Virus record (IMG/VR): IMGVR_UViG_3300009488_000003
Length of the DNA: 51,836 nucleotides
Strand: one strand, 5' to 3'
Source of the DNA: a virus
Both the position numbers and the translations under genes were made by a program. Shown piece by piece: positions 1 to 47,725 of this stretch. Below the pieces are notes generated by a model that saw only the letters and a program-made list of their open reading frames with translations, ran no database searches and was not told the origin of the DNA. Every line of letters begins with the position of its first letter. Position 1 is the first letter of the stretch.

Positions 1-123
1 CTTGCTCATGCTCAGCTCCAAACCTGTTTCGCCAGGAACCAGATCACCAGCCCGACCGCGACCGCTATCACGCCGAGCTTGCCGAGTAGCTTCATGCCGC
101 AATACCATTCCCAGGTCGCACGC
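1..123. repeat. Terminal overlap / direct terminal repeat, identical to 51714..51836
   Basis: All 123 nt match the last 123 nt of the window. The genome is therefore circularly closed or terminally redundant. Confidence 0.95.
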
Positions 124-226: not shown

Positions 227-319
227 GGCGTCACCTCAAGCGCCCGCCCGCCGGCCGTGAAAGGCGGCAACCAGACTGACCGGCGGGACGGGCTCGAACA
301 CGAGGAGGAGAGAGAGAAG

Positions 320-331
320 GATGCGGCGGGC
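320..331 (-). promoter_or_regulatory. copy of GCCCGCCGCAYC element
   Basis: The minus strand reads GCCCGCCGCATC followed by a pyrimidine tract. The same core occurs at 36745, 47417 and 47651. Confidence 0.4.
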
Positions 332-447
332 AGCGCACGCTAACGGCATTGCGTGCGCTATTCGGCTGTAAGCTCCCACGGGTTGCGGACCCGCTTAGCC
401 GTAGACCTCCTTGACCGAACGTGTTACCGACACGCGCCCGCCGCAAA

Positions 448-559
448 TGCACCAGGCCGGTCCTGCCCCGGCTCCGCGCCTCTTTGGTATAGTCGTTGGC
501 CGCTAAGCCCCGTTGCTGTACGCGTTCCTTGCGTGTCATCTTCGCCACGCCGCTGGTGC
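448..559 (-). ncRNA. tRNA-like structured RNA, element A (112 nt)
   Basis: 5' GCACCAG (559-553) pairs with CTGGTGC (455-449). That 3' strand directly follows hairpin GCCGG-GGCAGGA-CCGGC (472-456). A second stem is GCGTG..CACGC. No cloverleaf forms. Confidence 0.5.
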
Positions 560-564
560 ACCAT

Positions 565-852
565 CTACTGATACCGTTTACCGGTTTCAGCAGCATCGTA
601 TCTTTTACGCCAATTACAATTGGCACAGAGAACTTGTAGTCGTTTGAAGTCCGGCTTTTTCGCGATTTCCAAGTATTTCGTAATCGTGCCCGTGTTGCGT
701 GCATCACGCCGTTCTTTTGATCCACCTCCTCTGATGTGGTCAATCTGAAGCACGCGCCAGTCTGTCTCGCCGCAATGTGCACAATGTCCACCAAGAGCAG
801 TAAGCGCTGCTTGCCGTGTCCGTATCCGATATGTCTGTGTCTGTTTTGCCAT
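565..852 (-). CDS. HNH endonuclease (95 aa)
   Basis: CAHCG..LQIDHI..N..CANCN is the CxxC / D-H / N / CxxC HNH zinc-finger pattern. Confidence 0.85.
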   Translation of the reverse strand: MAKQTQTYRIRTRQAALTALGGHCAHCGETDWRVLQIDHIRGGGSKERRDARNTGTITKYLEIAKKPDFKRLQVLCANCNWRKRYDAAETGKRYQ

Positions 853-858
853 GCCCTA

Positions 859-886
859 ACTGTAGCGTGTCGCCGCGACACGTCAA
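859..886 (-). promoter_or_regulatory. sigma70-like promoter for the HNH ORF (near-leaderless)
   Basis: The minus strand reads TTGACG (886-881), a 16-nt spacer, then TACAGT (864-859). Only 6 nt separate it from the ATG at 852. Confidence 0.4.
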
Positions 887-1017
887 GCTCGCCACGCCGC
901 TGGTGCAAAGAAGATGCGGTGGACCAACCGGACGCAGTTGCCAGGGGCGACCTGACAGCCCGGCTCGGCGCGGTCGGCCAGCAGGAGCCTTCACCGCTAC
1001 GTTTCCGCCACCGCAAC

Positions 1018-1164
1018 CGCACCAGGCCGGATTCGAACCGGCATCTCTGCGTCCGGCAGGCAAAGGCGGGGATGGTTACCCGCTTGCTTCCCTTCATCGG
1101 CCGACTCGGTATCGCTCCATTGCGTTGCCTTCCGCAGCGTGATAGGCCGTCACACCGCTGGTGC
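1018..1164 (-). ncRNA. tRNA-like structured RNA, element C (147 nt)
   Basis: GCACCAG (1164-1158) pairs with CTGGTGC (1025-1019). That strand is adjacent to GCCGG-TTCGAAT-CCGGC (1042-1026), a consensus T-arm. The stem GTGTGA..TCACGC contains a U:G pair that is valid only on the minus strand. Confidence 0.55.
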
Positions 1165-1174
1165 AAAGAAGAGA

Positions 1175-1252
1175 CGCCCGGCACGGCACGTTGGGTTCGA
1201 ACATCAGGAGGGGTGCTAGGCTGGGTAGGCCACAGCAAAGCCGTGCCGGGCG
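1175..1252 (-). other. 78-nt hairpin with a perfect 13-bp stem
   Basis: cgcccggcacggc (1175-1187) is the exact reverse complement of 1240-1252. It lies between the preceding CDS and element C. Confidence 0.6.
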
Positions 1253-1295
1253 AGGGATTGCTCAGAGAATGGCGAATCATTCTCGATTCCTCGGT

Positions 1296-2652: not shown

Positions 2653-2671
2653 GGCGGGAATCGAACCCGCC
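2653..2671 (-). other. T-loop-like hairpin GGCGGG-TTCGATT-CCCGCC
   Basis: 6-bp stem with a 7-nt loop that matches the tRNA T-loop consensus. It lies in a 68-nt intergenic gap and no 5' acceptor partner is present. Confidence 0.5.
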
Positions 2672-2680: not shown

Positions 2681-2899
2681 CTAGGCGGCGGCTTTGGCGA
2701 TTGCGGCACGAGCCTGGGCTTTGGTGCGGAAAACGCAGCCTAGAGGATCGCCACCATACGCACGGCCGTACACGATGTAGCCTCGCTCTGTGCGACCCTG
2801 CAACGTGGTAACTGTCTGCGGTTCGGGCTCGACCGCGAGCGTGTCGCCGTAGACCTCGACGGCTCGTGTCAACGCTCGATTCTGAGCGGCGGTTACCAT
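2681..2899 (-). CDS. hypothetical protein (72 aa)
   Basis: GGGAG lies before the internal ATG at 2899, within ORF 2681..2977. Confidence 0.55.
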   Translation of the reverse strand: MVTAAQNRALTRAVEVYGDTLAVEPEPQTVTTLQGRTERGYIVYGRAYGGDPLGCVFRTKAQARAAIAKAAA

Positions 2900-3174: not shown

Positions 3175-3182
3175 AATCCCTT

Positions 3183-3206
3183 CTCCTGTGTCAGAACCCT
3201 GATACC
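3183..3206 (-). promoter_or_regulatory. intergenic leader repeat GGTATCAGGGTTCTGACACAGGAG
   Basis: It starts directly after the upstream TAG and ends in the Shine-Dalgarno sequence of the next gene. Close copies are at 3381 and 3595. Confidence 0.55.
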
Positions 3207-3373
3207 TATGACTCGAGCAAGGAACGTGCCAGCCCAACACGGTACGGTTCAAGCCCCGCACGCTCCGCCTTGCTGCGTGCTTCGAGTCTCGAGATCGCCC
3301 AGGTGTAGTAAGGCCGAGATCGGCCGTGGCAGTAAACCCGCCAGCGCTTCAAGCTGTGACCCTGCCATTCCAT
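3206..3373 (-). CDS. hypothetical protein (55 aa)
   Basis: Hand translation gives MEWQGHSLKRW...SLLES. It is preceded by the leader repeat and is below the ORF-track cutoff. Confidence 0.45.
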   Translation of the reverse strand: MEWQGHSLKRWRVYCHGRSRPYYTWAISRLEARSKAERAGLEPYRVGLARSLLES

Positions 3374-3380
3374 CGTGCTA

Positions 3381-3405
3381 CTTCCGTGTCAGAACCCTGA
3401 TACCC
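3381..3405 (-). promoter_or_regulatory. intergenic leader repeat GGGTATCAGGGTTCTGACACGGAAG
   Basis: Second copy. It again abuts the upstream TAG stop codon. Confidence 0.55.
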
Positions 3406-3587
3406 TATGCCAAGCCGACGCCCCGCAGCCACACTCGGCGGGACTGCCGGCGATTCTCGCGGATTGCCCAAGCCAACGCGCGACGTTGAGTGCTGTGGAT
3501 CGCACCGATCGGTGGACGCGGAACGCTCTTGCCGATGCAAACCAGCGCCCAGCGAATTCGGGCAAGACTGAATAGTTCGTTGACCAT
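3405..3587 (-). CDS. hypothetical protein (60 aa)
   Basis: GGGAG lies 7 nt before the ATG at 3587, which is Met20 of ORF 3405..3644. Confidence 0.5.
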   Translation of the reverse strand: MVNELFSLARIRWALVCIGKSVPRPPIGAIHSTQRRALAWAIRENRRQSRRVWLRGVGLA

Positions 3588-3594
3588 GATGATA

Positions 3595-3616
3595 CTCCCG
3601 TGAGAACCCTGAAACC
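3595..3616 (-). promoter_or_regulatory. intergenic leader repeat GGTTTCAGGGTTCTCACGGGAG
   Basis: Third copy, positioned just downstream of the -10 box of the 3627-3654 promoter. Confidence 0.5.
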
Positions 3617-3626
3617 TTACACGTGG

Positions 3627-3654
3627 AGCATAACACACCTGCAAGCGTTGTCAA
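3627..3654 (-). promoter_or_regulatory. sigma70-like early promoter
   Basis: The minus strand reads TTGACA (3654-3649), 16 nt, then TATGCT (3632-3627). The 18-nt core TCCCCTTGACAACGCTTG is also present at 33295 on the plus strand. Confidence 0.6.
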
Positions 3655-3771
3655 GGGGAAGTGAGAATTATCTTGCAGACCCATACATACTATATTGGCA
3701 TGGCTCGAGCCGGTGACGTCGGGCTCGGTGACCGATACTTGCCGGCGCTGGAAAGCGTCAGCAAAGCGGGG

Positions 3772-4128
3772 TCAATCGGCCATGATAGCTCGCCAGCGCT
3801 TCTCACGCTCGTGCTCCGATGTCCGTGGTCGCTCAGGCAGCTTGTTGTTGAAGCGCCTGATGTAGCTGCGTGCTCGAGGCTTGTCGCTCGGCGGCCGTTT
3901 CTTCGCGGGTAGAGCTCCGTGGGCTACTCTGTGGCAACGTCGACAGAGCAATCGCAGGTCGCCGAGCTCCTCCTGGAATATCCGCTCGTAGGTCACGTGG
4001 TGGACGTTCATGCGCCTCAAGCGTCGATGACAGGCCTCGCAGAAGCCGCCAGCACGCTTGACGACCCGCTGGCACAGCCTACGCCACTGGGGCGAGCGTA
4101 GGTACATCTTGTAGCTTGAAGAGATCAT
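3772..4128 (-). CDS. HNH endonuclease-like protein (118 aa)
   Basis: CEAC..HHVTY..CRRCH pattern. It sits next to the packaging genes, as in many phages. Confidence 0.75.
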   Translation of the reverse strand: MISSSYKMYLRSPQWRRLCQRVVKRAGGFCEACHRRLRRMNVHHVTYERIFQEELGDLRLLCRRCHRVAHGALPAKKRPPSDKPRARSYIRRFNNKLPERPRTSEHEREKRWRAIMAD

Positions 4129-4254
4129 AGAACGAACTCGAACGCATAGGCGCTAGCGGTTGAATCGCGGTTTGTCAAGTGGGTAAAGATTGCCCACCCC
4201 ATTGCAGAATGCACGACCGATAACATGGTAGGTGGGCACTCAGTCCCCACCCGC

Positions 4255-4303
4255 ACAATGGGTAAGATGAAATCAATGTCGACGTGGTACAATGGGTAAG
4301 ATG
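4255..4303 (+). promoter_or_regulatory. two perfect 15-bp direct repeats ACAATGGGTAAGATG in the divergent control region
   Basis: Copies at 4255-4269 and 4289-4303, with a degenerate third copy at 4178-4192. The second copy contains TGgTACAAT, which looks like an extended -10 box. Confidence 0.5.
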
Positions 4304-4583
4304 GGATATCACCCCATGTCGTGGCACGGGCTTGATTCTGGGCTCGAGCAGCCCCCAGCGAGGCAGGGTGGGACGATCGGCACCTATCGCCCCACTGTGC
4401 ACGTGCTTTAACGTGCGTTTACAGCAGCATTTACAGCAGTCTACGGCCGTATGGGACCCAATCGTGCACCGATTCCCGAAAGGCCCCCCGGGCCTCGAGG
4501 CCGCCGTACCCTACGTATATCCCCTCCCCGCCTCTGTTGCAACCAAGGGGATTTCGTGGTAGGGTGGGGCGTAGGAGCTTCTC

Positions 4584-6066: not shown

Positions 6067-7941
6067 ATGATCTGGACCCGTGAGACATTCCGGTCCGACT
6101 ACGCCCAGCAGCACGACCTGCCCCACTACAGCATCGTGCCCAAGGACCCGCTGGCGAACCTGGAGTTCCGGCGGACGATCTGGGCACGGGCCAAGAGCGA
6201 CCCGGGCTTCCAGCATGAGCAGATGCTCCGCTGCGCCCGCGACCTGCTGTATTTCGTGAACACGTACTGCGTGCTGTTTGAGCCGCGGAAGCCTCTGGGG
6301 CCGGCGGTATTCCCGTTCCTGACGTACGACTTTCAGGACGACACGCTGCTGGAGGTTGATCGGAAGCTGGGCAGAGAGGACATTCCGATCGAGAAGAGCC
6401 GCGACATGGGCGCGAGCTTCATGGTCATTTCGGGCAATCTCTTCCGTCAGTGGCTTTTCGTGCCGCGCTCGAGCTTTCTGCTGGTTAGCCGAAATGAAGG
6501 TCTCGTGGACAGCGCTACGGAACCAGATACGCTGTTCTACAAGCTCGATCTGCAACTCAGTCACCTGCCCCATTGGATGATCCCGCCGTTCACGCGGACG
6601 TTCTGCCATCTGGCCAACCCGGTGATGCACTCGGTCTTCCACGGCGAGACCACGACCGAAGACCTGAGTGCGGGCGGGCGTTGGCTCGTGATCGTGATGG
6701 ACGAGTACGCTCGGTTCAAGCCGGCCCCATCGTTCGAGGCGTGGTCGGCTACGATGCCCAGCACGAACTGCCGCATCCCGATCAGCAGTGCCAAGGGAGC
6801 GATCGGCAAGTTCTACGAACTGATGAACCCAGGCCCGGGCGAGCCCCCGGTAGACAAGATCAGGCTCTTCTGGGACCTGCACCCGGAGCACCGGCGGGGG
6901 TTGTATCAGTATCAGGTGGGCAAACTGGAAATCCTGGATCGGGAATACGTTTTCGCGGCGGATTACCCGTTCAAGCTCGACGGAAAGCTGCGGTCGGTCG
7001 CCTACGACTTCCAGGAGGCACGGCAACGCGATCCCCGCTTCATGGCGCAGGAGTGGGACATCGACTACATCGGGGCCGGTGCGCAGGCGTTCGACCGTGC
7101 CCGCGTGGAGGAGGCCCAAGCGGAGTATGCCCAACCCGCGACCGAGCGGGGCGACCTGCTGCTGGTCGGGGATGAACTTGCCGAGGTGGAGAAGTTCAGC
7201 CGGAACGAGAACGGGCACCTGTCGCTCTGGGTGCCGCTGACGGCAGCCGGACGGCCGCCCGAGGCCAAGTACATCGTGGGGGCGGACATTTCGCTGGGGG
7301 TCGGGGCGACCAACTCGACTGCGTTTGTCATCGACAAGGACCGGTCCGAGCAGGTCGCCGAGCTGGTGACGAACAAGCTGAATCCAGGCGACTTCGCGAT
7401 CCTGGTCGTGGCCCTGTGCGAGTGGTTCCACGGTGCGCTGCTGAATTGGGAGACCAACGGGGTTGGGAGCTGGTTCGGCAAGAAGGTGGGGGAGCTGGGC
7501 TACACGCGGCTGTGGTATCGGCGGTCGAGCGAGGAAGCACTGGATGCCAAGATCGTGTTCAAGCCCGGCTGGAAGAGCAGCCCGACCACCAAGGACTCGG
7601 CCATCGGGCAGTTCGTGACGGCGGCGCTGAACGGGGACATCATTTGCCGAAGTCGGCCGCTGTTCGAGGAGATTATCTTCTACCGCCACACCAAGGGCGG
7701 GATGGTTTCTGGTAGCATGGGCCGGTCGAGCTCTTCTGATGAGGCTAGCAAGGAGAATTTGAGTGACCGGGTGACGGGCGGCGCGGTATGCTACCGGGCA
7801 CTGGGCACGAGCCGGCGGCGCGTGGCCGCGTTGGCGAAGAAGCGTCAGGAGCCGGCGGTCCCAGTCGGCAGTTTGGCGCATCGGCGGAAATACCGGGGAG
7901 AATTGGCCGAAGGGCAGGAACAGAGAGACAGGTGGTACTGA
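6067..7941 (+). CDS. terL: terminase large subunit
   Basis: 624 aa. Walker-B-like LVIVMDEYA. Nuclease-type VGADISLGVGATNSTAFVID. It lies upstream of the portal gene. Confidence 0.8.
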   Translation: MIWTRETFRSDYAQQHDLPHYSIVPKDPLANLEFRRTIWARAKSDPGFQHEQMLRCARDLLYFVNTYCVLFEPRKPLGPAVFPFLTYDFQDDTLLEVDRKLGREDIPIEKSRDMGASFMVISGNLFRQWLFVPRSSFLLVSRNEGLVDSATEPDTLFYKLDLQLSHLPHWMIPPFTRTFCHLANPVMHSVFHGETTTEDLSAGGRWLVIVMDEYARFKPAPSFEAWSATMPSTNCRIPISSAKGAIGKFYELMNPGPGEPPVDKIRLFWDLHPEHRRGLYQYQVGKLEILDREYVFAADYPFKLDGKLRSVAYDFQEARQRDPRFMAQEWDIDYIGAGAQAFDRARVEEAQAEYAQPATERGDLLLVGDELAEVEKFSRNENGHLSLWVPLTAAGRPPEAKYIVGADISLGVGATNSTAFVIDKDRSEQVAELVTNKLNPGDFAILVVALCEWFHGALLNWETNGVGSWFGKKVGELGYTRLWYRRSSEEALDAKIVFKPGWKSSPTTKDSAIGQFVTAALNGDIICRSRPLFEEIIFYRHTKGGMVSGSMGRSSSSDEASKENLSDRVTGGAVCYRALGTSRRRVAALAKKRQEPAVPVGSLAHRRKYRGELAEGQEQRDRWY

Positions 7942-35616: not shown

Positions 35617-36000
35617 TCACATAGCAGCTTCACTCAGAAAAATCAAAAGCGCGTTGTTCTTGCGATGAAGACGATGTTGCCCAGCCAATGCCTCAACCCG
35701 GCCGGGCCGGTCATAACCCATCTTCTTCATCGCGCCTGCCAGCGGCACTATGCGGCGCCCGTAACGGTGGTTGCCATGCGGCGGGTTCTTCCACACGGCA
35801 ACTGGAGCCTCACCATCCAGCGGTCGGCGCAGCGCAAGAACCTTCGTCTCCGCGTCGAACAGCAGCGTAGCATGTCCATCAAGTCCGGCGTACTTCAAGT
35901 CGTCTTCGTGGAAATACGCTCGCCCAGCCTTTGTTAAGGTGACGATACCGGCCGGCACGCGCTCGCTCGTGTTCTTGTTCCTGTAGACCTGGAGCGCCAC
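35617..36000 (-). CDS. hypothetical protein (127 aa)
   Basis: GTG start coupled to the upstream mini-gene. Confidence 0.55.
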   Translation of the reverse strand: MALQVYRNKNTSERVPAGIVTLTKAGRAYFHEDDLKYAGLDGHATLLFDAETKVLALRRPLDGEAPVAVWKNPPHGNHRYGRRIVPLAGAMKKMGYDRPGRVEALAGQHRLHRKNNALLIFLSEAAM

Positions 36001-36003
36001 GGT

Positions 36004-36090
36004 CTATCCTTCCACCCCCAGAATCACGTAGTCGATGGCCCCCGACAACAGCCGCCAGAGTTCAATGGCCCAGTCCAGATAGTAAATCAT
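36004..36090 (-). CDS. hydrophobic peptide (28 aa)
   Basis: AAGGAG lies before the ATG. Sequence MIYYLDWAIELWRLLSGAIDYVILGVEG. Confidence 0.35.
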   Translation of the reverse strand: MIYYLDWAIELWRLLSGAIDYVILGVEG

Positions 36091-36235
36091 CGCTTGCTCC
36101 TTTTGTAGGTACCCAGAACAAACACACAAAGTCAATCGTTTGTCTCCCCTACTCTGTTACTGTAACGTCGAAAATGTCGTTATGCCGCCAGCACCACCAA
36201 TTGCGTTGCCACCACCTGATGGCTGTGCCGCCCCC

Positions 36236-36727
36236 TCAGCAACCGCTCCCTTGTGAGAGTAACACCGTAGACTCGCCGTCGGCAATGCACTGGAACGTGA
36301 ACCGCACGGGGAAAGGCTCGTCTGAGCACGTCAAGTCCGGCAACCCATTGTGCTGTATGTAGCCACGCCAGTGAAAGTCGCCGTCGTCGTAATCATAGTC
36401 GTTTGGGTCATTCGGGTCAGGATCGATCAGCCAATGCCAAATGTGCCAATCGGCGTCCCAGTCCACGTCCACCCACTCCACGCCGGTGCAAACGATGTGC
36501 TCGGTGTCATAGTAACACAGCACTTCAACCAAGCGGTACTTGTCGGGGTCTCTGGGGCCACTGGGCTGCACCTTGATGTCGATATAGAAGTCCTCCCCTT
36601 TGGATACCTCGATTACGGCGGGCCAGCCGTACACGTCGATGCCGGGCGGCGGACACTGCGGTATGCGCACGGCCGCGAGAAGCAAGCCAGCCAGAACAAC
36701 AGTAATCAGTAACAGCAACTTCCTCAT
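36236..36727 (-). CDS. secreted Asp/Trp-rich protein (163 aa)
   Basis: Signal peptide MRKLLLLITVVLAGLLLAAV. CAGGAG lies before the ATG. Confidence 0.6.
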   Translation of the reverse strand: MRKLLLLITVVLAGLLLAAVRIPQCPPPGIDVYGWPAVIEVSKGEDFYIDIKVQPSGPRDPDKYRLVEVLCYYDTEHIVCTGVEWVDVDWDADWHIWHWLIDPDPNDPNDYDYDDGDFHWRGYIQHNGLPDLTCSDEPFPVRFTFQCIADGESTVLLSQGSGC

Positions 36728-36744
36728 CGTTCATCTCCTGAAAA

Positions 36745-36756
36745 GGTGCGGCGGGC
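36745..36756 (-). promoter_or_regulatory. copy of GCCCGCCGCAYC element
   Basis: The minus strand reads GCCCGCCGCACC about 25 nt before the start at 36727. TTGACC-16-TAAATC lies just upstream. Confidence 0.4.
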
Positions 36757-37016
36757 CGGTGATTTATTGTTGCGGCTGTCACGGTCAACAGGCGCAATCC
36801 TGAGACCTCCTGCCACCAGAGCGACAGTCACTGGCCTCCCTCGTCGCGATACGGCCGCAAGCAGGTCACTGTCCACCCGCGGTCAGCCGCCGCCGCAAGT
36901 TCGCTATCTACTACTCTTGAACATAAACAAACGTCTGTCCAACTGACAACGAAGTCATCGGCACCTTTCGCGTGTACGAGTCGGCTATGGTCGCCATGTT
37001 TTTTCACCCAGCATGG

Positions 37017-37361
37017 TCACTCCTTTTTCGCCACTAGTACGTCGAGCCGCTTATGCACTGCCTTGAAACCATCGTGGGTTTCTTTCCGCATCTCGCGGAG
37101 CTGCTCCTTCGTCTCGTTCTGTGACTTGTGGATCGCCTCTTGGTGAGCCCCGAGCCCCGCGATCGCCGCCGTGTTGGCCGAGATGCCATCCCCGTGGTCG
37201 CGGCAGACCTGGCCCAGCCCTGGCTTGCAGTTCGGGCCGTTCTGCCGGTTGTTCCGCCGCCGCTCGACTATACTGCCGACAACCCCGCCCGAAAGCAGCA
37301 CGCCGAGTGCTATACCGATTATCTCGGTCGCGTTGAGGGCCTGGACGGCGAGCATCAGCAT
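37017..37361 (-). CDS. N-terminally anchored coiled-coil protein (114 aa)
   Basis: Transmembrane segment IIGIALGVLLSGGVVGSIV followed by a charged helix. It could be spanin-like or holin-like. Confidence 0.5.
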   Translation of the reverse strand: MLMLAVQALNATEIIGIALGVLLSGGVVGSIVERRRNNRQNGPNCKPGLGQVCRDHGDGISANTAAIAGLGAHQEAIHKSQNETKEQLREMRKETHDGFKAVHKRLDVLVAKKE

Positions 37362-37882
37362 CCCCCACCTCCCGGAACCGCTCCCGAAACGCCTTGGGTA
37401 GTATCTTGCCCCGGCTGGTTTGGTTTCGTGCGATCCTGGCGCCAGAGGCCCCCCTGTGTGCAGGATTCCTTGCCAAGTCGAACACGTGCCATCTCATCAG
37501 CAGACGCACCCGGTCCACCAGGCGGGACTCGCGACGGTCGGATAAGTTCCAAGGCCTCAGATATGTTATCGGACGGCAACGTAGCCCCGAGCTCAAAATC
37601 GCCCTCCTGTTGAATCTCCCCACCCAAGGCTCTGATTTTGGCTAGAGCAGCTTTCACGCCCCGGCCTGATTTGTAGCACAGATAGATGCTCAGTCGGTCA
37701 CCATCCATCGCTACGTAGCCATCGCGACCTACAATCGCGTCCCAGCGGTCTTCGGCTCCGGCAAAAGCCTGGCGCGCAGCGGGGATACGAGGCTTGCACC
37801 GAGCAGGAGGAACAGGGCCGCCATCATGCAGATTTCGCGTGCGAAGACGATGCTGTTTGGCGTAGCCAAGAAGGTCGAACAT
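37355..37882 (-). CDS. hypothetical protein (175 aa)
   Basis: The start is preceded by the 31-nt repeat at 37889-37919. Confidence 0.55.
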   Translation of the reverse strand: MFDLLGYAKQHRLRTRNLHDGGPVPPARCKPRIPAARQAFAGAEDRWDAIVGRDGYVAMDGDRLSIYLCYKSGRGVKAALAKIRALGGEIQQEGDFELGATLPSDNISEALELIRPSRVPPGGPGASADEMARVRLGKESCTQGGLWRQDRTKPNQPGQDTTQGVSGAVPGGGGC

Positions 37883-38131
37883 CTAGCACCTGCCAGCTAT
37901 ATCGCGGTCCGGCCCGTCCTGGCATCTCTGACTACCGGGCTGCCCCGCAGAATCGCCTGACGGGGCTGAGAATCGCTTTTTGGGGGTGCTGAAGCGTCTC
38001 CGGCAGGATGGGCGGTTGTGTTCGATTGCCGCCTTGATACGCGGCCAAACCTCCTCGTCATAGCCCGAGTCATCTGCGGACCACTCATCGAGGAGGACAG
38101 ACAACCGTGCATACCTCTCAAGCCTGCTCAT
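37883..38131 (-). CDS. hypothetical protein (82 aa)
   Basis: The ATG at 38131 is preceded by the second copy of the 31-nt repeat. Confidence 0.5.
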   Translation of the reverse strand: MSRLERYARLSVLLDEWSADDSGYDEEVWPRIKAAIEHNRPSCRRRFSTPKKRFSAPSGDSAGQPGSQRCQDGPDRDIAGRC

Positions 38132-38197
38132 GGCCCACCTACCAGCTATTTCGCGGTCGAGCCCGTACCGTAGCACAAAATCTGGGGGCTGGCAAGG

Positions 38198-38482
38198 TCA
38201 TTTCTGCTCTCCCTCGACGCGGGCGAGGGTCTCAACGGCGATTGCAGCCCACCACAATCCGCGAGCCCACTCGGCACAGCCATCTCGAATTTCCTGCAAG
38301 CCCTTCACCGCCTCATCCCGCTGTTGTTCGAGTCGGTCAACTTCGGCCTCGAGTTCGTTGATCCGACATTTGTCAAATTGGTAGGGCTCCCGGCCATGTT
38401 TGATTGAACCGCAGAGCCACTCGCCACGGCGCGCTTTCGCATCCCAGCGCTTGGGCTTTGCGCCACACCACGGGCAATTCAT
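38198..38482 (-). CDS. zinc-ribbon plus coiled-coil protein (94 aa)
   Basis: MNCPWCG...WLCGS motif. Confidence 0.55.
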   Translation of the reverse strand: MNCPWCGAKPKRWDAKARRGEWLCGSIKHGREPYQFDKCRINELEAEVDRLEQQRDEAVKGLQEIRDGCAEWARGLWWAAIAVETLARVEGEQK

Positions 38483-39414
38483 TTCTCGTCTCCCTCAGCC
38501 ATCCCCATGCCCTGAGCACCACGCGCGTAGGCAAGGATGTGATCCCAGAAATACCGACTCCGGCCAGGCTCGGGGTAGTGCCATAGGTGGTCCATCCGAT
38601 CGGCATCGTTCCGCAGAAACTGCCCGTACAGTTCCGAGAGGTCGGTCGGGTAGACGCAGTGGTTCTGCCACCAGCCCCTCTGAGGATGGTAGCCCGAACC
38701 GAGCGTGATCCACGGGGCCTGGCGCGGGCAACTACGGCCGTCGGGCGCCCAGCGGATGTTGGCCTGGCCCGAGCTTACGTGGAATCGCGTCGTTGTGTCA
38801 TCCATGTCGTAGGGGCGGTAGAGTGACGCCGCGTAGTAGTCCATCTCTGGGCCGTACACACCTTGTCCGTGCTTGCGGTTCGGGGCGGCGTACCAGACGA
38901 TCGCGGCGTCAGGGTAAACAGCACGGCCGAGGTCATCGAAAACCTGTAGCAGGGCAGCCAGTTGGTCGTTGGAGTCAGCCAGGATGTCGTTGGGGCCGAT
39001 CTTGGAGACATACTCCTGGGAGGTGTAGACCTCATGATCGAACATCAGGACGAACAGCTTTTGCCCCGGCCACAGCGCTTCTATCCGTTCCTTGAATCGG
39101 CGGGCCTCTCCCAGAAACCGAGCTTGGTCGGCAAGGTACGCACAGGGATCATTACTATGTCGCGTCGCCCAGTAGGGCGACCACTGCACGGCGACCTTGG
39201 CGTTTGTCTGTCGGGCCACGCGAATCCCAGCATCCCAATCGGTGTCGTCTTTGAGTGCCAGGCTCACGGCCCTCGTAACGCGGGCGAACTCGACCGCGAC
39301 GGCATGATTTTCTTTGTCCCACCAGTTGCCCCTGAGATTCCAGGTGTAGTGCGTCAACCACAATGGGGGCGTTTCACACAGCGCCTTGAACTGTTCAGCC
39401 GTTGGGGGATTCAT
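38479..39414 (-). CDS. hypothetical protein (311 aa), function unassigned
   Basis: GAAGGAG lies before the ATG at 39414. It is Trp/Tyr-rich and is the only mid-sized early protein without a call. Confidence 0.5.
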   Translation of the reverse strand: MNPPTAEQFKALCETPPLWLTHYTWNLRGNWWDKENHAVAVEFARVTRAVSLALKDDTDWDAGIRVARQTNAKVAVQWSPYWATRHSNDPCAYLADQARFLGEARRFKERIEALWPGQKLFVLMFDHEVYTSQEYVSKIGPNDILADSNDQLAALLQVFDDLGRAVYPDAAIVWYAAPNRKHGQGVYGPEMDYYAASLYRPYDMDDTTTRFHVSSGQANIRWAPDGRSCPRQAPWITLGSGYHPQRGWWQNHCVYPTDLSELYGQFLRNDADRMDHLWHYPEPGRSRYFWDHILAYARGAQGMGMAEGDEK

Positions 39415-43982: not shown

Positions 43983-44464
43983 GGCTGTTCCTTGTCCCAC
44001 AGCGCGAGGGCCTGGCGGAGGAGGAAAAGGGATTCGCTCACCATATATGGCGTCGCAAAGTTCTCAGCGGGGAAATTTGGCGTTCCCGCTTGTGGGATCA
44101 TCGTCTGGCTCAACGGCGGCAGTGAAATTTGGCTAGCAAGTTCGTGCTGCTTCGCAAGAGGAATGTCATGCCACCGGGCTAGAAGATCAATGAACGCTGT
44201 ACGGGCTATGCTCGGCCGCCCCTCCGCCAGCAACTTGCCCCACTGCCCCGCGATCGCCAGCGGGTTGCACGCACAGCCCTTGTTGCGACGCTTGTAGACC
44301 GCGATGGCGGCCCGTAGCTGCTCGGGCGTGGCCCCGGCGTCGCGCAGCTCCTTGAGGCCCTTGTTCCACTTGCCGCGTTCGGACTGGGTTATCGGGCCTG
44401 CGCCGCCGCCGTTGCAGAGTTCTACGGCTACGTCCCATAATGGGTCGGGCTTGCGCTTGGTCAT
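43979..44464 (-). CDS. hypothetical protein (161 aa)
   Basis: GGTGACGAG-ATG start context. Confidence 0.55.
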   Translation of the reverse strand: MTKRKPDPLWDVAVELCNGGGAGPITQSERGKWNKGLKELRDAGATPEQLRAAIAVYKRRNKGCACNPLAIAGQWGKLLAEGRPSIARTAFIDLLARWHDIPLAKQHELASQISLPPLSQTMIPQAGTPNFPAENFATPYMVSESLFLLRQALALWDKEQP

Positions 44465-44841
44465 CTCGTCACCGCACCGATAACGTAGCTCCGCTGCAAA
44501 TAGGCGCGCTTCGAGCTGTCCGGCTCTTCCTGTCGTATGCGTTCCTCTTCGGTCACGAACTCGATGTGCCTGTTGATGTCCTTGAACTCAGACCGTACAC
44601 GGCCCCGGCGTTGGCTCACCCAGTACAGGACGCCGCAGTGACCGTAGCGCCAGAACAGTTCCGCGAGCAGGGGCAATTCCTCATCGGGCACGTATTGGCC
44701 GTCCGCACACGCCCATGCCCACGTATCGTTCATGTTCAAGGTTTGAGCCCAGTCCTTGCCCTCGACCCCGTCATCGTCGTCTTTGCCGAAAAACAGGTCT
44801 GCTCGTGTCAGCAATTCGCGGGCTTCTTCTTCTGTGAACAT
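44461..44841 (-). CDS. hypothetical protein (126 aa)
   Basis: GGTGACGAG-ATG start context. It is the first gene after the ORF-free block. Confidence 0.55.
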   Translation of the reverse strand: MFTEEEARELLTRADLFFGKDDDDGVEGKDWAQTLNMNDTWAWACADGQYVPDEELPLLAELFWRYGHCGVLYWVSQRRGRVRSEFKDINRHIEFVTEEERIRQEEPDSSKRAYLQRSYVIGAVTR

Positions 44842-44854
44842 CTCGTCACCGCAT

Positions 44855-45660
44855 CCCTTGGCACAAGGGCTACGCCCGTCGCGGGACTCGAACCCACTGT
44901 TCAGCCTCCCGCATCTCGAACTCGCCGTGGCCTTTGGCTATGCGGTTCCAGCGGCTTTGCAACCAGCACGGGCATTGTTTCTCGTCAAGCGCACCCAGCC
45001 CTTTACGACCGACCCTACGGGCAAGTGAAATCCGCATGGTCTTTGCCGCTCTCCCTCCTGGATCTCCGCCCGAACAGCAAAAAATCGCGGCGGACGATCT
45101 CAGAGAGAACGGGGTCGCTTGGCTCGCAAGCAAAAACGCGCACGTCGGCCCCGGGTCGCAAGGGAAAACGTTGCCCGGATTTTGGAGAGGAAGCGCGACA
45201 ACTTTCGCGAGCTGGCACGAGCCCCTGGGGGGTGCTCGCCGACCGTCCCGATCCTGCCAGTTGATTGCCCCACTTTTGGCACTTGTCGAGTGGCGGGGTA
45301 AGTGGTAGCACGGAACCCGCGTGATGCTTGTGGCTCGCCAACAACCGGAGATGCGCGACAAACAACTTTGTGGTGCACCCGTGAGCCACAAGATGAAGCC
45401 CCCTTCGCCCTCAGCGACCCAGCCCGAAGCGTGCGCACGCTTGGCCGTCGCCTCGATCTCCAGCCTTGGTGTTGCCAAAGCCGGACCCACCGAGCTGAGC
45501 CGCTGAGGAAGAAGGGGGAAAAGCAATCGCCCAGAACGACCCGACCCGATGGTCCAATGGCTAACGTTGCTAAGTCGCAGCCGGCGAATCGGGCCGCCCT
45601 GGGCGGTTGCAGAGAGAACGAGATTATTGACCATTGAACCATACCCCGTCTTTACGGGCT
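44855..45660 (-). ncRNA. candidate giant structured RNA (~0.8 kb)
   Basis: No credible CDS. Several long-range helices of 10-18 bp can be drawn, and their G:U pairs become A/C mismatches on the plus strand. A T-loop hairpin (44897-44881) and a terminal hairpin (44869-44855) sit at the 3' end. Confidence 0.55.
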
Positions 45661-45673
45661 GTTTGCGGGCGTG

Positions 45674-46117
45674 TCAAGCCCTTTTTTTGGCTTCGTCAGC
45701 CTTTTTAGCCTTTTCCGTGAGGCTCCAGCGGTTGGCTTCATCGTCCCACGTAATGTAGAAGCTCGCCCACAGCGTGTGGTACACGACGTAAGTTGCGATG
45801 GCGCGCCCCGTGGATTGCTTCTTACCGTTCAAAAGCTCCACCACCTCAGCAAACGTCTTCGGCTTGCTTTTCCAGACACTTGATACGAATTGCCACGGTG
45901 CATGATTCGTTCTCCCGACGACGACCTTTGCACCTGGGTGTTGCTCTTGCAGCATTTCCCGAAACATATCCGCGGCATCTCCGCAACTGAAGCTGAGCGA
46001 CTTGCCGTCTTTGTCTAGGCGATGGACGACCATCTCGCCGTGGCAGTTCACGAGAACCAGGAAGGCACGGCTACCATCTTTTTTGGAAGGTCCACAGAAA
46101 TCCTTGTAGTAGCTCAT
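45674..46117 (-). CDS. hypothetical protein (147 aa)
   Basis: Protein-like composition with GAGG before the ATG. Confidence 0.6.
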   Translation of the reverse strand: MSYYKDFCGPSKKDGSRAFLVLVNCHGEMVVHRLDKDGKSLSFSCGDAADMFREMLQEQHPGAKVVVGRTNHAPWQFVSSVWKSKPKTFAEVVELLNGKKQSTGRAIATYVVYHTLWASFYITWDDEANRWSLTEKAKKADEAKKRA

Positions 46118-46127
46118 CTCAACCTCC

Positions 46128-46412
46128 TTACTCTTCCTCTTTGGGCAACAGGTCGAGCCCGCGGCAGGCGTCCACGAGCTTCTGGTCCAGGCCGTAATTC
46201 AGCTTGGCCTCCGGGGGGCACTCGACAACTCGACGGGCGAGGTAATGCGAGTTGCTCGTGAACACCAGCTCGAACCAGCCGCCCTGCCGCGCGTGGTAGT
46301 AAAGGCTCAGGCCAGCGGTCGTAAAGATGCGTGGCGGTGGAAGCGGAGACTTGAATTTCCACTCATAGCTTGGACGCTCAGGGGCGTTCGTAGCATCTGG
46401 ATCTGAAGCCAT
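46128..46412 (-). CDS. hypothetical protein (94 aa)
   Basis: AAGGAG lies 7 nt before the ATG at 46412. Confidence 0.55.
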   Translation of the reverse strand: MASDPDATNAPERPSYEWKFKSPLPPPRIFTTAGLSLYYHARQGGWFELVFTSNSHYLARRVVECPPEAKLNYGLDQKLVDACRGLDLLPKEEE

Positions 46413-46449
46413 CGTTTTCTCCTTAGGTTGGGGGCTGTCAAGCTCTTTT

Positions 46450-46692
46450 TCAGGCGTCGCGGATTCGGCTGGCGTCGTCGAGGTTGAGGCCGAGGCACCT
46501 GCTAATGCCACTCCAGCGAATTTGCCCACCGTTGGAGTGAAGCGTCCAGAGAGTGCCGCAACTTAGTGCCTTGCCGCTTCTGTCACACGCGAAGACTTCG
46601 TATGCCCCGTCACCCGTCACCCGCGTGTTCAGTATCAGCGTTGCTGGCTTCTCCGGCTCCGGCTTGTCGAAAATCTCGATCTTGAGCGGCAT
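46450..46692 (-). CDS. hypothetical protein (80 aa)
   Basis: AGGAG lies before the ATG. Confidence 0.55.
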   Translation of the reverse strand: MPLKIEIFDKPEPEKPATLILNTRVTGDGAYEVFACDRSGKALSCGTLWTLHSNGGQIRWSGISRCLGLNLDDASRIRDA

Positions 46693-46701
46693 GTCGGTCT
46701 C

Positions 46702-47016: not shown

Positions 47017-47087
47017 CGTCGTCTCCTTCGTGCTGAGTACCATCGGTAGGATTTCTAGCGTTTCGGTCATGTTCTGTTCTCAGAATA

Positions 47088-47143: not shown

Positions 47144-47178
47144 CTCTCACTCAGTCGCCGTCACGCTCGCGAGTTCGC

Positions 47179-47397: not shown

Positions 47398-47416
47398 CGG
47401 ATTCTCCTTCCAGTTA

Positions 47417-47429: not shown

Positions 47430-47650
47430 AGGTACGCGTTCAGTTATGCGGGCGTGACGGGCCGGATTCCCCACCCGGCTCCATGCGGTTGTAAGCCCTG
47501 ACAGTTGGCCTACGGTACGCAACACCCTACCCGGCGCTGCCACGCTGCCGCCACGCCCGCGAGTCACATTCGCACGAACATTTGGCATTGCTCGCATTGG
47601 CAATCAGTTCCGTGCGTCATTTCCATCACCACCTTTTCGATCGCAAGAGA

Positions 47651-47663
47651 AGATGCGGCGGGC
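47651..47663 (-). promoter_or_regulatory. copy of GCCCGCCGCAYC element
   Basis: The minus strand reads GCCCGCCGCATCTTCTCTTGC. This resembles CCACCGCATCTTCTTTGCACCAG found upstream of the tRNA-like RNAs. Confidence 0.4.
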
Positions 47664-47725
47664 CAAGTTTGCCCACCTTGGTGCGGTTATAAGCCACATC
47701 GCCGCGAGGCAGCGCCGCCGCCGCA

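What the first reader, a model, noticed from the sequence alone, without database searches (positions are those of the whole stretch)
448..1252. Two paralogous tRNA-like RNAs: acceptor stem plus T-arm closing 112 and 147 nt of non-tRNA interior
Element C (1164 to 1018, minus strand):
- 5' GCACCAG pairs perfectly with CTGGTGC.
- That 3' strand lies immediately after GCCGG-TTCGAAT-CCGGC, an exact tRNA T-arm and T-loop consensus.
- A single discriminator-like base follows.

Element A (559 to 448):
- It reuses the same 7-bp acceptor pair.
- Its 3' strand is next to GCCGG-GGCAGGA-CCGGC.

Shared features:
- Both continue with CG and then a stem GYGTG..CACGC.
- A C-G pair in element A is replaced by U:G in element C. 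This is consistent with a conserved RNA helix and is valid only on the minus strand.

Differences from a real tRNA:
- The interiors do not form a cloverleaf. There is no 5-bp/7-nt anticodon arm, and the candidate loops are 8 nt.
- A 13-bp perfect hairpin (1175-1252) lies just upstream.
- Both 5' ends are preceded by CCGCATCTTCTTTGC-type sequence, which resembles the promoter-like GCCCGCCGCAYC element.

Phage T4 is known to encode two stable RNAs of unknown function (RNA C and RNA D) in its tRNA cluster. That is the closest precedent I know, and these elements could be an analogous but unrelated family.
Basis: partly seen in the sequence, partly recalled or inferred. Interest (0 to 1): 0.75.

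Follow-up and report, generated by a model that had tools for sequence, protein, structure and literature searches.

The report
tRNA-derived RNA frames in phage
An uncultured phage carries tRNA-shaped RNA frames (acceptor, D and T arms intact) that enclose unrelated interiors and sit in a former tRNA-array-like locus invaded by a homing endonuclease gene; they are probably excised as stable small RNAs rather than used as tRNAs, but nothing shows they are expressed.

Summary
The two elements exist at the stated coordinates, on the minus strand of a complete ~51.7-kb orphan phage genome. The shape alone (7-bp helix plus abutting 5/7/5 hairpin) occurs at chance frequency. Paralogue conservation is what is non-random: helix positions are 33/34 identical, with the one change a compensated U·G; D and T loops are 5/17 identical (p=4.5e-7); the interiors are unalignable.

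A third 5' copy (B, 906-889) exists. A 95-aa HNH endonuclease cassette with its own promoter lies between B and A, bracketed by a 19-nt direct repeat. Element C is called tRNA-Arg(CCG) once a 74-nt insert next to the anticodon loop is skipped.

C is not a working tRNA: C8, G14 and G33 replace invariant bases, there is no splice motif, and Rfam and default ARAGORN are silent. The "promoter-like" GCCCGCCGCAYC is the 3' strand of a second repeat family of long-range stems (4 copies against 0.07 expected).

Best reading: tRNA-derived frames acting as RNase P / 3'-processing and stabilising handles, a natural counterpart of the engineered tRNA scaffold. No homologues exist outside this phage, and expression is untested.

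The parts
1175..1252 (-). hp1: a 13-bp perfect closing helix (CGCCCGGCACGGC/GCCGTGCCGGGCG) around two inner hairpins, followed by the tail TCTCTTCTTT (1174-1165)
   Evidence: Fold z -5.3, with MFE close to centroid. It occupies the same position and has the same pyrimidine tail as the family-2 stems, but its helix sequence is different.
1018..1164 (-). Element C, a 147-nt tRNA-derived frame. Acceptor 1164-1158 / 1025-1019; CG 1157-1156; D arm 1155-1137; anticodon-type stem CUGCG/CGCAG; T arm GCCGG-TTCGAAT-CCGGC 1042-1026; discriminator G 1018.
   Evidence: Sequence. ARAGORN -i calls tRNA-Arg(CCG), the only such call in the genome against 0.05-0.1 per shuffle. With the insert removed, default ARAGORN also calls it. 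The MFE keeps the acceptor, D and T arms.
1059..1132 (-). 74-nt insert ('payload') of C, between the 5' strand of the anticodon stem and the loop UGCCGGA. Its ends pair as GAAGGCAA/UUGCCUGC; inner hairpin GCGGG-UAACCAUC-CCCGC.
   Evidence: No Rfam match. Complementarity to the phage genome is no greater than in shuffles.
915..1015 (-). hp2, a family-2 element: closing helix TGCGGTGG/CCACCGCA with a branched interior, followed by the tail TCTTCTTT (914-907). It starts 2 nt after C's discriminator.
   Evidence: Relative to the other copies it carries a compensatory C-G to U-A change. The junction CCGGCCTGGTGC-NN-TTGCGGYGG is conserved after both C and A.
889..907 (-). B: an orphan copy of the 5' module (T+GCACCAGCGGCGTGGCGA) with the same upstream TCTTCTTT as C. 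It is the left copy of the 19-nt direct repeat that brackets the HNH cassette.
859..886 (-). Sigma70-like promoter of the HNH cassette: TTGACG, 16-nt spacer, TACAGT, ending 6 nt before the ATG
565..852 (-). HNH endonuclease gene (95 aa) with foreign composition (GC3 0.42 against about 0.72 in phage genes)
   Evidence: PHROG HNH families, E 1.7e-9. Composition. tblastn hits to annotated HNH endonucleases. A homologue lies inside a tRNA array in phage PcCB7V.
542..560 (-). Right copy of the 19-nt direct repeat; it is also the 5' end of element A
448..559 (-). Element A, a 112-nt paralogous frame. It has the same acceptor, CG, D stem (GCGTG/CACGC) and T stem as C, but a non-consensus T loop (GGCAGGA), a D loop without GG, and a 57-nt interior with no anticodon arm. 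Discriminator A 448.
   Evidence: ARAGORN makes no call even at ps50.
322..445 (-). hp3, a family-2 element: TGCGGCGGGC/GCCCGCCGCA closing three inner hairpins, followed by the tail TCCTTCTCTCTC. It starts 2-3 nt after A.
   Evidence: Fold z -3.5
47448..47560 (-). Element E, a possible distant paralogue. A 13-bp closing helix (GCGGGCGUGGCGG/CCGUCACGCCCGC) abuts a GCCGGG..CCGGC arm (GGAGCCGGG..CCGGCC as in A), forming a four-way junction.
   Evidence: MFE -67, equal to the centroid, z -3.7 on the minus strand against z -1.3 on the plus strand. The pattern GCCGG-N7-9-CCGGC occurs only 3 times in the genome.
47654..47725 (-). hp4, a family-2 element (76 nt with the GA/TC extension): cloverleaf fold, inner arm UGUGG-CUUAUAA-CCGCA, tail TTCTCTT
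36747..36897 (-). hp5, a family-2 element lying between two minus-strand genes, tail CCTTTTC
44873..44973 (-). Element F, a third acceptor + consensus T-arm frame: GCCCGU(G)/GACGGGC abutting GUGGG-UUCGAGU-CCCGC, with a D-like arm GGUU-GCAA-AGCC. It lies at the 3' end of a ~780-nt structured stretch that shows no coding signal.

Best explanation
WHAT IT IS. C and A are tRNA-derived structural RNA frames, not decoding tRNAs. A tRNA-type gene (Arg-CCG-like in C) kept its acceptor stem, D arm and T arm, while the anticodon region became a variable insert (74-94 nt in C, 57 nt in A). The frames lie in the early, minus-strand transcription block, in an alternating array hp1 - C - hp2 - [A] - hp3. 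A small mobile HNH cassette with its own promoter later entered this array, duplicated 19 nt, and left the orphan 5' fragment B.

HOW IT MOST LIKELY WORKS (inferred, not shown). The 7+5-bp acceptor/T-stem stack, together with G+1, U-1 and the conserved pyrimidine leader UCUUCUUU, is a substrate for host RNase P. The 3' side is trimmed by the normal tRNA 3'-end machinery. The polycistronic early transcript would therefore be cut at each frame. Each frame plus its insert would be released as a discrete, nuclease-resistant RNA of about 110-150 nt. This is the natural equivalent of the engineered 'tRNA scaffold'. The cut would also uncouple the flanking mRNA segments, including the HNH mRNA from A.

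STILL OPEN. Whether the useful product is the excised RNA (payload function unknown) or the cleavage itself is undecided.
For: SHOWN BY THE TOOLS.
- Helices conserved, loops free: 33/34 helix positions are identical between C and A, and the single change is a compensated U.G. Only 5/17 D- and T-loop positions are identical (Fisher p 4.5e-7). The interiors align no better than shuffles. The only conserved internal islands (CACGC, GCCGG) are the ones complementary to the conserved terminal blocks.
- C has full tRNA architecture: ARAGORN -i calls tRNA-Arg(CCG), 1 call in the genome against 0.05-0.1 per shuffle. With the insert removed, default mode also calls it.
- The T-arm core GGTTCGANTCC occurs 3 times, all on the minus strand, against 0.14 expected. 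A third frame, F, has the same architecture with different, compensated helices.
- The region is non-coding. The annotated 349-aa ORF has codon LLR -0.21 and flat GC1/2/3.
- The strand is the transcribed one. A U.G pair and the order D arm 5' / T arm 3' fit only the minus strand. Flanking genes are on the minus strand, with a TTGACA-17-TAAGGT promoter-like site read off the sequence upstream at 1548-1520.
- U at -1 and G at +1 in C, B, A and F; the leader TCTTCTTT is conserved in C and B.
- tRNA-array context: a homologous HNH lies between tRNAs in phage PcCB7V, 44 nt before the next tRNA.

FROM THE LITERATURE.
- RNase P processes non-tRNA RNAs, including phage C4 antisense RNA, tmRNA, operon mRNAs and intergenic ncRNAs. 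Its protein subunit contacts leader positions -8 to -3. T4 tRNAs lack an encoded CCA (PMC11143913).
- A frame of acceptor, T and D arms with an insert in the anticodon stem is processed and stable in vivo (PMC3753655).
Against: - There are no transcript data at all. Ends at 1164/1018 and 559/448 are predicted, not observed.
- No homologue was found in any collection, so there is no between-genome covariation.
- The geometry alone is at chance frequency, and the fold energies of C and A are ordinary.
- The helices are identical in sequence rather than covarying. This could mean a recent duplication, gene conversion or sequence-specific recognition rather than a pairing constraint alone.
- A lacks a consensus T loop and D-loop GG, so it cannot form a canonical tRNA elbow.
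- 3' CCA is not encoded.
- E has a 13-bp closing helix and so does not fit the 12-bp RNase P ruler.
- The payloads have no recognisable motif or target.
Confidence: 0.45

Rival explanations
1. Decaying tRNA genes. The phage once carried a small tRNA array with a homing endonuclease. C, A, B, F and the isolated T-arm hairpin at 2670 are pseudogene remnants disrupted by insertions, with no present function.
For: - B is clearly a truncated fragment.
- A has lost the consensus T loop and the D-loop GG.
- C has C8, G14 and G33 where tRNAs have invariant U8, A14 and U33.
- An orphan T arm lies at 2671-2653 with no acceptor partner.
- HNH genes commonly sit in phage tRNA arrays (PMC13096335).
- No canonical tRNA is left in the genome.
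Against: - Neutral decay should hit helices as often as loops. Instead, all 34 helix positions still pair in both copies, while the loops and interiors are saturated with change.
- Phage genomes are under packaging pressure and seldom keep more than 0.8 kb of dead DNA in an early operon.
- The flanking junction sequences are also conserved.
Confidence: 0.2
2. A purely cis-acting intercistronic structure. Together with the family-2 stems, the frames act as attenuators, terminators, antiterminators or mRNA-stability elements of the early operon. They work through their helices, without RNase P and without a released RNA product.
For: - They alternate with family-2 stems that carry pyrimidine tails and lie 15-35 nt upstream of start codons.
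- The simple terminator scan flags the 3' parts of hp1 and hp3.
- The variable interiors fit a role in which only the closing helices matter.
Against: - This does not explain why C keeps a complete tRNA architecture with a consensus T loop and an anticodon-type stem-loop.
- It does not explain why the T arm must abut the 3' strand in C, A, E and F.
- The tails are C-interrupted rather than U runs, and the enclosed loops are 60-130 nt, which is atypical for intrinsic terminators.
Confidence: 0.15
3. Decoys or sponges for a host tRNA-targeting defence or tRNA-binding enzyme. The frames mimic a tRNA (Arg-CCG-like) closely enough to bind an anticodon nuclease, modification enzyme or synthetase, but they cannot be used in translation.
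For: - C retains an anticodon-type loop UGCCGGA on a 5-bp stem in a tRNA frame.
- Phage tRNAs are documented counter-defences against PARIS, retron effectors and Septu (PMC11464382, PMC11555353, PMC13096335).
- In T6, a homing endonuclease next to tRNA genes drives amplification of such loci (PMC13096335). Here an HNH gene lies among tandem paralogues.
Against: - In the most stable folds the anticodon triplet is partly buried in the insert helix.
- A has no anticodon arm at all.
- No defence target or host is known.
- The idea is compatible with the processing model rather than exclusive of it.
Confidence: 0.1
4. Element C is a functional intron-containing tRNA-Arg(CCG) that is spliced and used in translation.
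For: ARAGORN -i calls it, and the in-silico spliced form is called in default mode.
Against: - By inspection, there is no bulge-helix-bulge motif at the junctions. GAA faces GGA or UGCCGGA as an internal loop.
- The 74 nt are far below group I size, and no intron family matches in Rfam.
- The insert sits at 31/32, not at a canonical position.
- C8, G14 and G33 replace invariant U8, A14 and U33.
- All signals point to a bacterial host, which has no tRNA splicing endonuclease: sigma70-type promoters, SD sites, and terminase relatives found only in phages of bacteria.
- Paralogue A cannot be made into a tRNA.
Confidence: 0.04
5. DNA-level repeats. The conserved blocks are recognition or recombination sites (HNH target, recombinase or regulator binding sites arranged as inverted repeats) and no RNA structure is involved.
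For: - The helices are conserved in sequence, not merely in pairing.
- The two junction blocks are roughly reverse complements of each other.
- A 19-nt direct repeat brackets the HNH cassette.
Against: - The U.G pair in C's D stem would be a C.A mismatch on the other strand.
- The family-2 helix shows a compensatory C-G to U-A change.
- Element E folds 17 kcal/mol better on the minus strand.
- The internal islands CACGC and GCCGG are conserved only where they pair with the terminal blocks.
- All copies share one orientation, which matches the direction of transcription.
Confidence: 0.06

Closest known systems
Engineered 'tRNA scaffold' chimeras (Ponchon and Dardel; described in PMC3753655)
   Same: Element C keeps the acceptor stem, T arm and D arm, and carries a foreign structured insert that continues the anticodon stem as a hairpin. 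The scaffold was designed this way so that cellular tRNA enzymes process and stabilise the chimera.
   Different: C is natural, not engineered. Processing and stability are untested here. A has a degenerate T loop and D loop. The payload function is unknown.
Phage T4 RNAC and RNAD (stable RNAs from the T4 tRNA region; PMC3014915)
   Same: These are phage-encoded small RNAs that are longer than tRNAs, lie in a tRNA-gene context, and have no known role. A homing endonuclease gene lies nearby in both cases (SegB in T-even phages, PMC13096335; HNH here).
   Different: No sequence relationship could be tested, because the tools hold no model or sequence of RNAC/RNAD. T4 also has genuine tRNAs around them, whereas this phage has none.
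RNase P-processed non-tRNA RNAs: P1/P7 C4 antisense RNA, pre-tmRNA, operon mRNAs (PMC11143913); MALAT1-mascRNA (PMC8457004)
   Same: A tRNA-like module inside a longer transcript serves as a cleavage signal that defines RNA ends. Element F, at the 3' end of a ~780-nt non-coding stretch, mirrors the MALAT1/mascRNA layout.
   Different: Cleavage is not demonstrated here. There is no antisense target as there is for C4. There is no tag ORF and no G3:U70 pair as in tmRNA.
Canonical and intron-containing tRNA genes
   Same: C has a 7-bp acceptor, a 5-bp T stem, the T loop UUCGAAU, a D loop with GG, and a 5-bp anticodon-type stem with a 7-nt loop carrying CCG.
   Different: A 74-nt insert without any known splice signal; C8, G14 and G33; not found by default ARAGORN or by Rfam RF00005.
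Phage tRNA arrays invaded by free-standing HNH/Seg homing endonucleases (for example Pectobacterium phage PcCB7V; T-even SegB, PMC13096335)
   Same: A small HNH gene sits between tRNA-type genes, a few nucleotides to tens of nucleotides before the next one, amid tandem paralogues and short direct repeats.
   Different: Here the 'tRNAs' are non-canonical frames. The cassette (327 bp including its promoter) is unusually small.

Membership tests
Canonical decoding tRNA | Detected as a contiguous cloverleaf by standard tRNA finders or the Rfam tRNA model | tested here: not met
   ARAGORN default finds 0 genes in the window. Rfam has no hit at gathering score or at E<=10 over 1-2000.
Canonical decoding tRNA | 7-bp acceptor stem plus 5-bp T stem with a T loop of consensus UUCRANY abutting the 3' acceptor strand | tested here: met
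   Met for C (GCCGG-TTCGAAT-CCGGC). For A the stems are met but the T loop (GGCAGGA) is not.
Canonical decoding tRNA | Near-invariant U8, A14 and U33, and an uninterrupted 5-bp/7-nt anticodon arm | tested here: not met
   The ARAGORN model of C has C8, G14 and G33, and a 74-nt interruption between stem and loop. A has no anticodon arm.
Intron-containing tRNA (archaeal BHB type) | Bulge-helix-bulge motif (3-nt bulge, 4-bp helix, 3-nt bulge) at the exon-intron junctions | tested here: not met
   By inspection of the junctions given, GAA on the 5' side faces GGA or UGCCGGA on the 3' side at the same level. That is an internal loop, not staggered bulges. Promoter and SD signals, and terminase relatives, are bacterial.
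Intron-containing tRNA (bacterial group I type) | A group I intron core in the anticodon loop | tested here: not met
   No Rfam intron family matches at E<=10. From general knowledge, 74 nt is well below the size of known group I introns.
tmRNA | tRNA-like domain with G3:U70, a tag-peptide reading frame and pseudoknots; detectable by ARAGORN or Rfam | tested here: not met
   ARAGORN tmRNA mode finds none; only spurious permuted calls appear at ps60. Rfam finds none. Pair 3:70 is A-U.
Bacterial Y RNA / YrlA | Match to the Rfam model; termini form the Ro-binding stem, with the tRNA-like module at the apex | tested here: not met
   No Rfam hit. Here the termini themselves form the acceptor helix. 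A neighbouring Ro60 (Rsr) gene was not searched for systematically.
T4-type stable RNAs C and D | Sequence or structure homology to T4 RNAC/RNAD | not testable with these tools
Only the context analogy can be stated (PMC3014915).
Bacterial RNase P substrate (functional class) | About 12 bp of coaxial acceptor/T-stem stack, G+1:C72, and a preferred U at -1 | tested here: met
   7+5 bp in C and A; G+1/C72; T at -1 in C, B, A and F.
Bacterial RNase P substrate (functional class) | 3' RCCA, and actual cleavage at the predicted site | not testable with these tools
   CCA is not encoded (GGUU after C, AUUU after A). T4 tRNAs also lack an encoded CCA (PMC11143913). Cleavage needs an experiment.
tRNA-scaffold architecture | Acceptor, D and T arms intact; the anticodon stem continued by an inserted hairpin | tested here: met
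   C has CUGCG/CGCAG followed by GAAGGCAA/UUGCCUGC and a branched insert. A has an intact frame but a weakly defined central stem.
HNH homing endonuclease (ORF 852-565) | HNH family profile match; free-standing small ORF with foreign composition | tested here: met
   PHROG HNH families, E 1.7e-9 to 4e-6. No Pfam hit at 1e-3. GC3 0.42. tblastn hits to annotated HNH endonucleases. Nuclease activity and homing are untested.

The most novel reading that the evidence does not exclude
This phage has converted tRNA genes into a general RNA-production device. tRNA-derived frames (C, A, F and possibly E) punctuate its early transcripts. Host RNase P and the tRNA 3'-end enzymes excise and stabilise a set of otherwise unrelated structured non-coding RNAs, including a ~650-nt RNA released upstream of frame F. 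This would be a bacteriophage counterpart of mitochondrial tRNA punctuation, of MALAT1/mascRNA, and of the laboratory tRNA scaffold. The payloads would act on the host, for example as anti-defence or regulatory RNAs.
Probability: 0.25. Interest if true: 0.72.

Novelty: new variant of a known kind. Interest (0 to 1): 0.5.

Why it matters
If the frames are processed as proposed, they would show that a virus has naturally adopted the trick molecular biologists use to make stable recombinant RNA: hiding an RNA inside a tRNA frame. They would also give a concrete, testable example of tRNA-like punctuation organising a phage early operon.

It would flag a class of phage non-coding RNAs that current annotation misses. 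Here, public gene callers covered the locus with spurious 349-aa and 254-aa ORFs, and tRNA and Rfam tools are silent.

If instead the elements are dead tRNA genes, the locus still documents how a homing-endonuclease cassette remodels a phage tRNA array.

Tried and rejected
1. Known RNA family: Rfam at gathering score on the whole window, and at E<=10 on 1-2000, 36000-38500 and 44300-48200, gave nothing meaningful.
2. tmRNA: rejected.
3. Protein-coding reading: the 349-aa ORF 1280..231, annotated in a public contig, is rejected on codon statistics.
4. Homologues by DNA pattern:
   - The 15-mer of the 5' module gave only chance single hits.
   - The 24-mer T arm + acceptor gave ordinary tRNA-Gly(UCC) genes in two AT-rich phages and one tRNA-Thr in a 32-tRNA array.
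   - The junction 23-mer in metagenomes and the 20-mer in IMG/VR gave only chance hits inside coding genes.
5. Homologues by synteny:
   - Recombinase relatives (36-46% identity) are unrelated phages without tRNA-like modules.
   - Terminase relatives at 52% sit on contigs that do not reach the locus. Those at 38% have no such elements in the fetched flanks.
   - The adjacent 68-aa gene has no homologue at all.
   - IMG/VR has no relative.
6. attP / host tRNA 3' half: the 38-mer from anticodon loop to 3' end has 0 hits in 185,579 species genomes.
7. Antisense targets of the interiors within the phage genome: none above shuffles.
8. Thermodynamic significance of C and A: not significant.
9. Geometry-only significance: none.
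10. A gap-by-gap structure survey timed out. It was replaced by targeted folds.
Full report
GENOME CONTEXT. The window carries an exact 123-bp terminal direct repeat, so it is a complete, circularly closed genome of about 51.7 kb. It is a tailed phage. It has a major head protein (phrog_9953), a tail protein, a YqaJ-type recombinase and an LPD38-containing giant protein. ORF 6067-7941 is the large terminase, because its relatives carry PF03237. The phage is an orphan. It has no nucleotide match among 50,697 deposited phages. Its terminase is only about 21% identical to those of cultured phages, all of which infect bacteria. Most large ORFs have no Pfam hit. An independent Logan contig (L123) is 100% identical over the RNA locus, so the layout is not an assembly artefact.

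CHECK OF THE OBSERVATION. On the minus strand, elements C (1164-1018) and A (559-448) are exactly as described. Both have the acceptor pair GCACCAG/CTGGTGC, a 5-bp stem GCCGG/CCGGC with a 7-nt loop abutting the 3' strand, CG at positions 8-9, and the stem GYGTG/CACGC with U.G in C where A has C-G. The 13-bp hairpin at 1252-1175 is real and highly non-random (z -5.3). The shape by itself is not significant. A scanner for any 7-bp helix with an abutting 5/7/5 hairpin finds 30 cases in the window against 30.8 +/- 4.8 in dinucleotide shuffles. Requiring a D arm as well gives 6 against 4.2 +/- 2.3. The fold energies of C and A are ordinary (z -0.74 and -1.45).

There are three copies of the 5' module, not two. 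Copy B (906-889) is the one preceded by CCACCGCATCTTCTTT, whereas A is preceded by a stop codon plus 5 nt. Between B and A lies a 95-aa HNH endonuclease ORF (852-565; PHROG HNH families, E 1.7e-9). It has a foreign composition (GC3 0.42 against about 0.72) and its own sigma70-like promoter, TTGACG-16-TACAGT, ending 6 nt before the ATG. The 327-bp cassette is bracketed by a 19-nt direct repeat, TGCACCAGCGGCGTGGCGA (907-889 and 560-542). Removing the cassette and one repeat copy would give A the same TCTTCTTT leader as C. The ancestral order was therefore hp1 - C - hp2 - A - hp3.

THE ANNOTATED ORF IS SPURIOUS. A 349-aa ORF (1280..231) that public gene callers annotate through the locus fails the coding tests. 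Its codon log-likelihood is -0.21, against +0.19 to +0.45 for confident genes, and its GC1/2/3 profile is flat at 0.59/0.61/0.63.

IS IT tRNA-RELATED? Default ARAGORN and Rfam find nothing. In intron mode ARAGORN makes exactly one call in the genome: element C as tRNA-Arg(CCG) with a 74-nt 'intron' (1132-1059) between the 5' strand of the anticodon stem and the loop UGCCGGA. The rate in shuffled genomes is 0.05-0.1 calls. With the insert removed in silico, default ARAGORN calls it as well. BLAST of that sequence against annotated phage tRNAs matches only the generic T arm of several isotypes. The T-arm core GGTTCGANTCC occurs three times in the genome, all on the minus strand, against 0.14 expected. 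So C is tRNA-derived.

WHY C IS NOT A WORKING tRNA. The model has C8, G14 and G33 where tRNAs have near-invariant U8, A14 and U33. The junctions show no bulge-helix-bulge motif on inspection. The 74 nt match no intron family. Promoters, Shine-Dalgarno sites and terminase relatives all point to a bacterial host, which lacks a tRNA splicing endonuclease. Element A cannot be turned into a tRNA even at very relaxed settings.

THE KEY INTERNAL EVIDENCE. Comparing C with A, the 34 helix positions (acceptor, D stem, T stem) are 33 identical plus one compensated U.G. The D and T loops are 5/17 identical (Fisher p 4.5e-7). The interiors (94 and 58 nt) align no better than shuffles. The only conserved internal islands, CACGC and GCCGG, are the ones that pair with the conserved terminal blocks. 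This is the signature of constraint on helices. One caveat applies: the helices are conserved in sequence rather than covarying, so recent duplication, gene conversion or sequence-specific recognition may contribute.

SUPPORT FROM ELEMENTS E AND F. Two further elements share the architecture but use different helices. F (44973-44873) has GCCCGU(G)/GACGGGC abutting GUGGG-UUCGAGU-CCCGC (z -2.1). E (47560-47448) has a 13-bp closing helix abutting a GCCGGG..CCGGC arm, and folds with z -3.7 on the minus strand against -1.3 on the plus strand.

THE 'PROMOTER-LIKE' ELEMENT. GCCCGCCGCAYC is the 3' strand of a second repeat family. The pair TGCGGYGG...CCRCCGCA, enclosing 60-135 nt of branched structure, occurs four times (1015-915, 445-322, 36897-36747, 47725-47654) against 0.07 expected. 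Every copy is intergenic in a minus-strand block and is followed by a pyrimidine tail. The 1015-915 copy carries a compensatory C-G to U-A change. The first two copies start 2-3 nt after C and A, and the junction CCGGCCTGGTGC-NN-TTGCGGYGG is conserved. Their role (attenuator, terminator, stabiliser or processing site) is open.

SEARCH FOR HOMOLOGUES. Every route failed.
- DNA patterns returned chance hits or ordinary tRNAs.
- The 38-mer from anticodon loop to 3' end has no match in 185,579 species genomes, which argues against an attP or host-tRNA copy.
- Syntenic anchors led to unrelated or truncated contigs with no tRNA-like modules.
The interiors also have no complementarity to the phage genome beyond shuffles.

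MECHANISM (INFERRED). The frames have the features bacterial RNase P uses: a 12-bp acceptor/T-stem stack, G+1:C72, U at -1 (in C, B, A and F), and a conserved leader at -8 to -1. That leader covers the -8 to -3 stretch contacted by the RNase P protein (PMC11143913). RNase P is documented to cut phage C4 antisense RNA precursors, pre-tmRNA, operon mRNAs and intergenic ncRNAs, and T4 tRNAs likewise lack an encoded CCA (PMC11143913). The engineered tRNA scaffold keeps the acceptor, T and D arms and places an insert in the anticodon stem, and it is processed and stable in E. coli (PMC3753655). Element C has precisely that design. I therefore propose that the early transcript is cut at the frames. 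Frame-plus-payload RNAs of about 110-150 nt would be released and the flanking mRNA segments separated. The HNH context matches phage tRNA arrays (PMC13096335). I put this reading at 0.45. The rivals are dead tRNA genes at 0.2, purely cis-acting structures at 0.15, tRNA-mimic decoys at 0.1, DNA-level repeats at 0.06 and a spliced functional tRNA at 0.04.

VERDICT. This is a real, non-coding, tRNA-derived pair of paralogous frames in a remodelled tRNA-array-like locus. It is a new variant of a known kind (tRNA-like RNAs such as T4 RNAC/RNAD, C4 and mascRNA). It is confined to one orphan phage and has no expression data. Interest is moderate (0.5).

Noticed in passing
window 44868-45680 (minus strand): A stretch of about 780 nt shows no coding signal. 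The 254-aa ORF called there in a public contig has codon LLR -0.13, flat GC1/2/3 and a junk-like translation. The stretch starts just after a near-consensus promoter, TTGACA-17-TAAAGA (about 45674-45646). It is strongly structured (z -3.6), has no Rfam match at E<=10, and ends in tRNA-like frame F. It may be a large novel ncRNA. A 55-aa ORF with a good SD (45036..44870) overlaps F.
   Followed up: partly
window 2653-2671 (minus strand): An isolated consensus T-arm hairpin, GGCGGG-TTCGATT-CCCGCC, lies about 10 nt after the stop codon of gene 2899..2681 and about 40 nt before the next ATG. It has no acceptor partner. It could be a tRNA 3'-fragment relic or a stand-alone stabiliser.
   Followed up: partly
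window 47397-47726 (minus strand): A second RNA-rich spacer. It contains family-2 element hp4 (a 76-nt cloverleaf fold with an anticodon-like arm UGUGG-CUUAUAA-CCGCA), then an 18-aa Cys-rich micro-ORF (MTHGTDCQCEQCQMFVRM, 47620-47564) with an SD, then element E, then another GCCCGCCGCATCC copy 20 nt before the next start codon. The 5' strand at 47727 could pair with either of two downstream CCGCCGCATC copies (47661-47652 or 47427-47418).
   Followed up: partly
window 231-1280 and 44870-45634 (minus strand): Public gene calls (Logan contig L123) place long ORFs of 349 and 254 aa over what are non-coding, structured regions. Both ORFs are unusually long for chance open frames, but both fail the codon-usage and GC3 tests.
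   Followed up: yes
window 37362-38197, 3175-3771 and 4012-4583: Further stretches of 0.5-0.8 kb where my coarse gene map found no gene. The last two flank the divergence point of the minus- and plus-strand blocks. A permissive Rfam scan of 36000-38500 found nothing meaningful. I did not examine these stretches further.
   Followed up: no
L121 4350-4430 and L122 11275-11355: In two AT-rich phage tRNA arrays, an uncalled tRNA-like element lies just upstream of tRNA-Gly(UCC). It reads GCCAGG..CCTGGC around 'TCGGATGCGAATCCGAT' (L121) or a related arm (L122). ARAGORN does not annotate it.
   Followed up: no
L133 (Planctomycetaceae MAG contig JAJDEI010000226.1), 663-3957: A 4.1-kb contig consists almost entirely of 32 tandem tRNA genes. 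It is probably a mobile or phage-derived tRNA array. Its tRNA-Thr(CGU) shares the 24-nt T arm + acceptor strand of element C.
   Followed up: no
window 1-123 and 51714-51836: An exact 123-bp terminal direct repeat shows that the window is a circularly closed assembly of the whole genome. The YqaJ recombinase gene is therefore the downstream neighbour of the RNA locus, about 0.9 kb away.
   Followed up: yes
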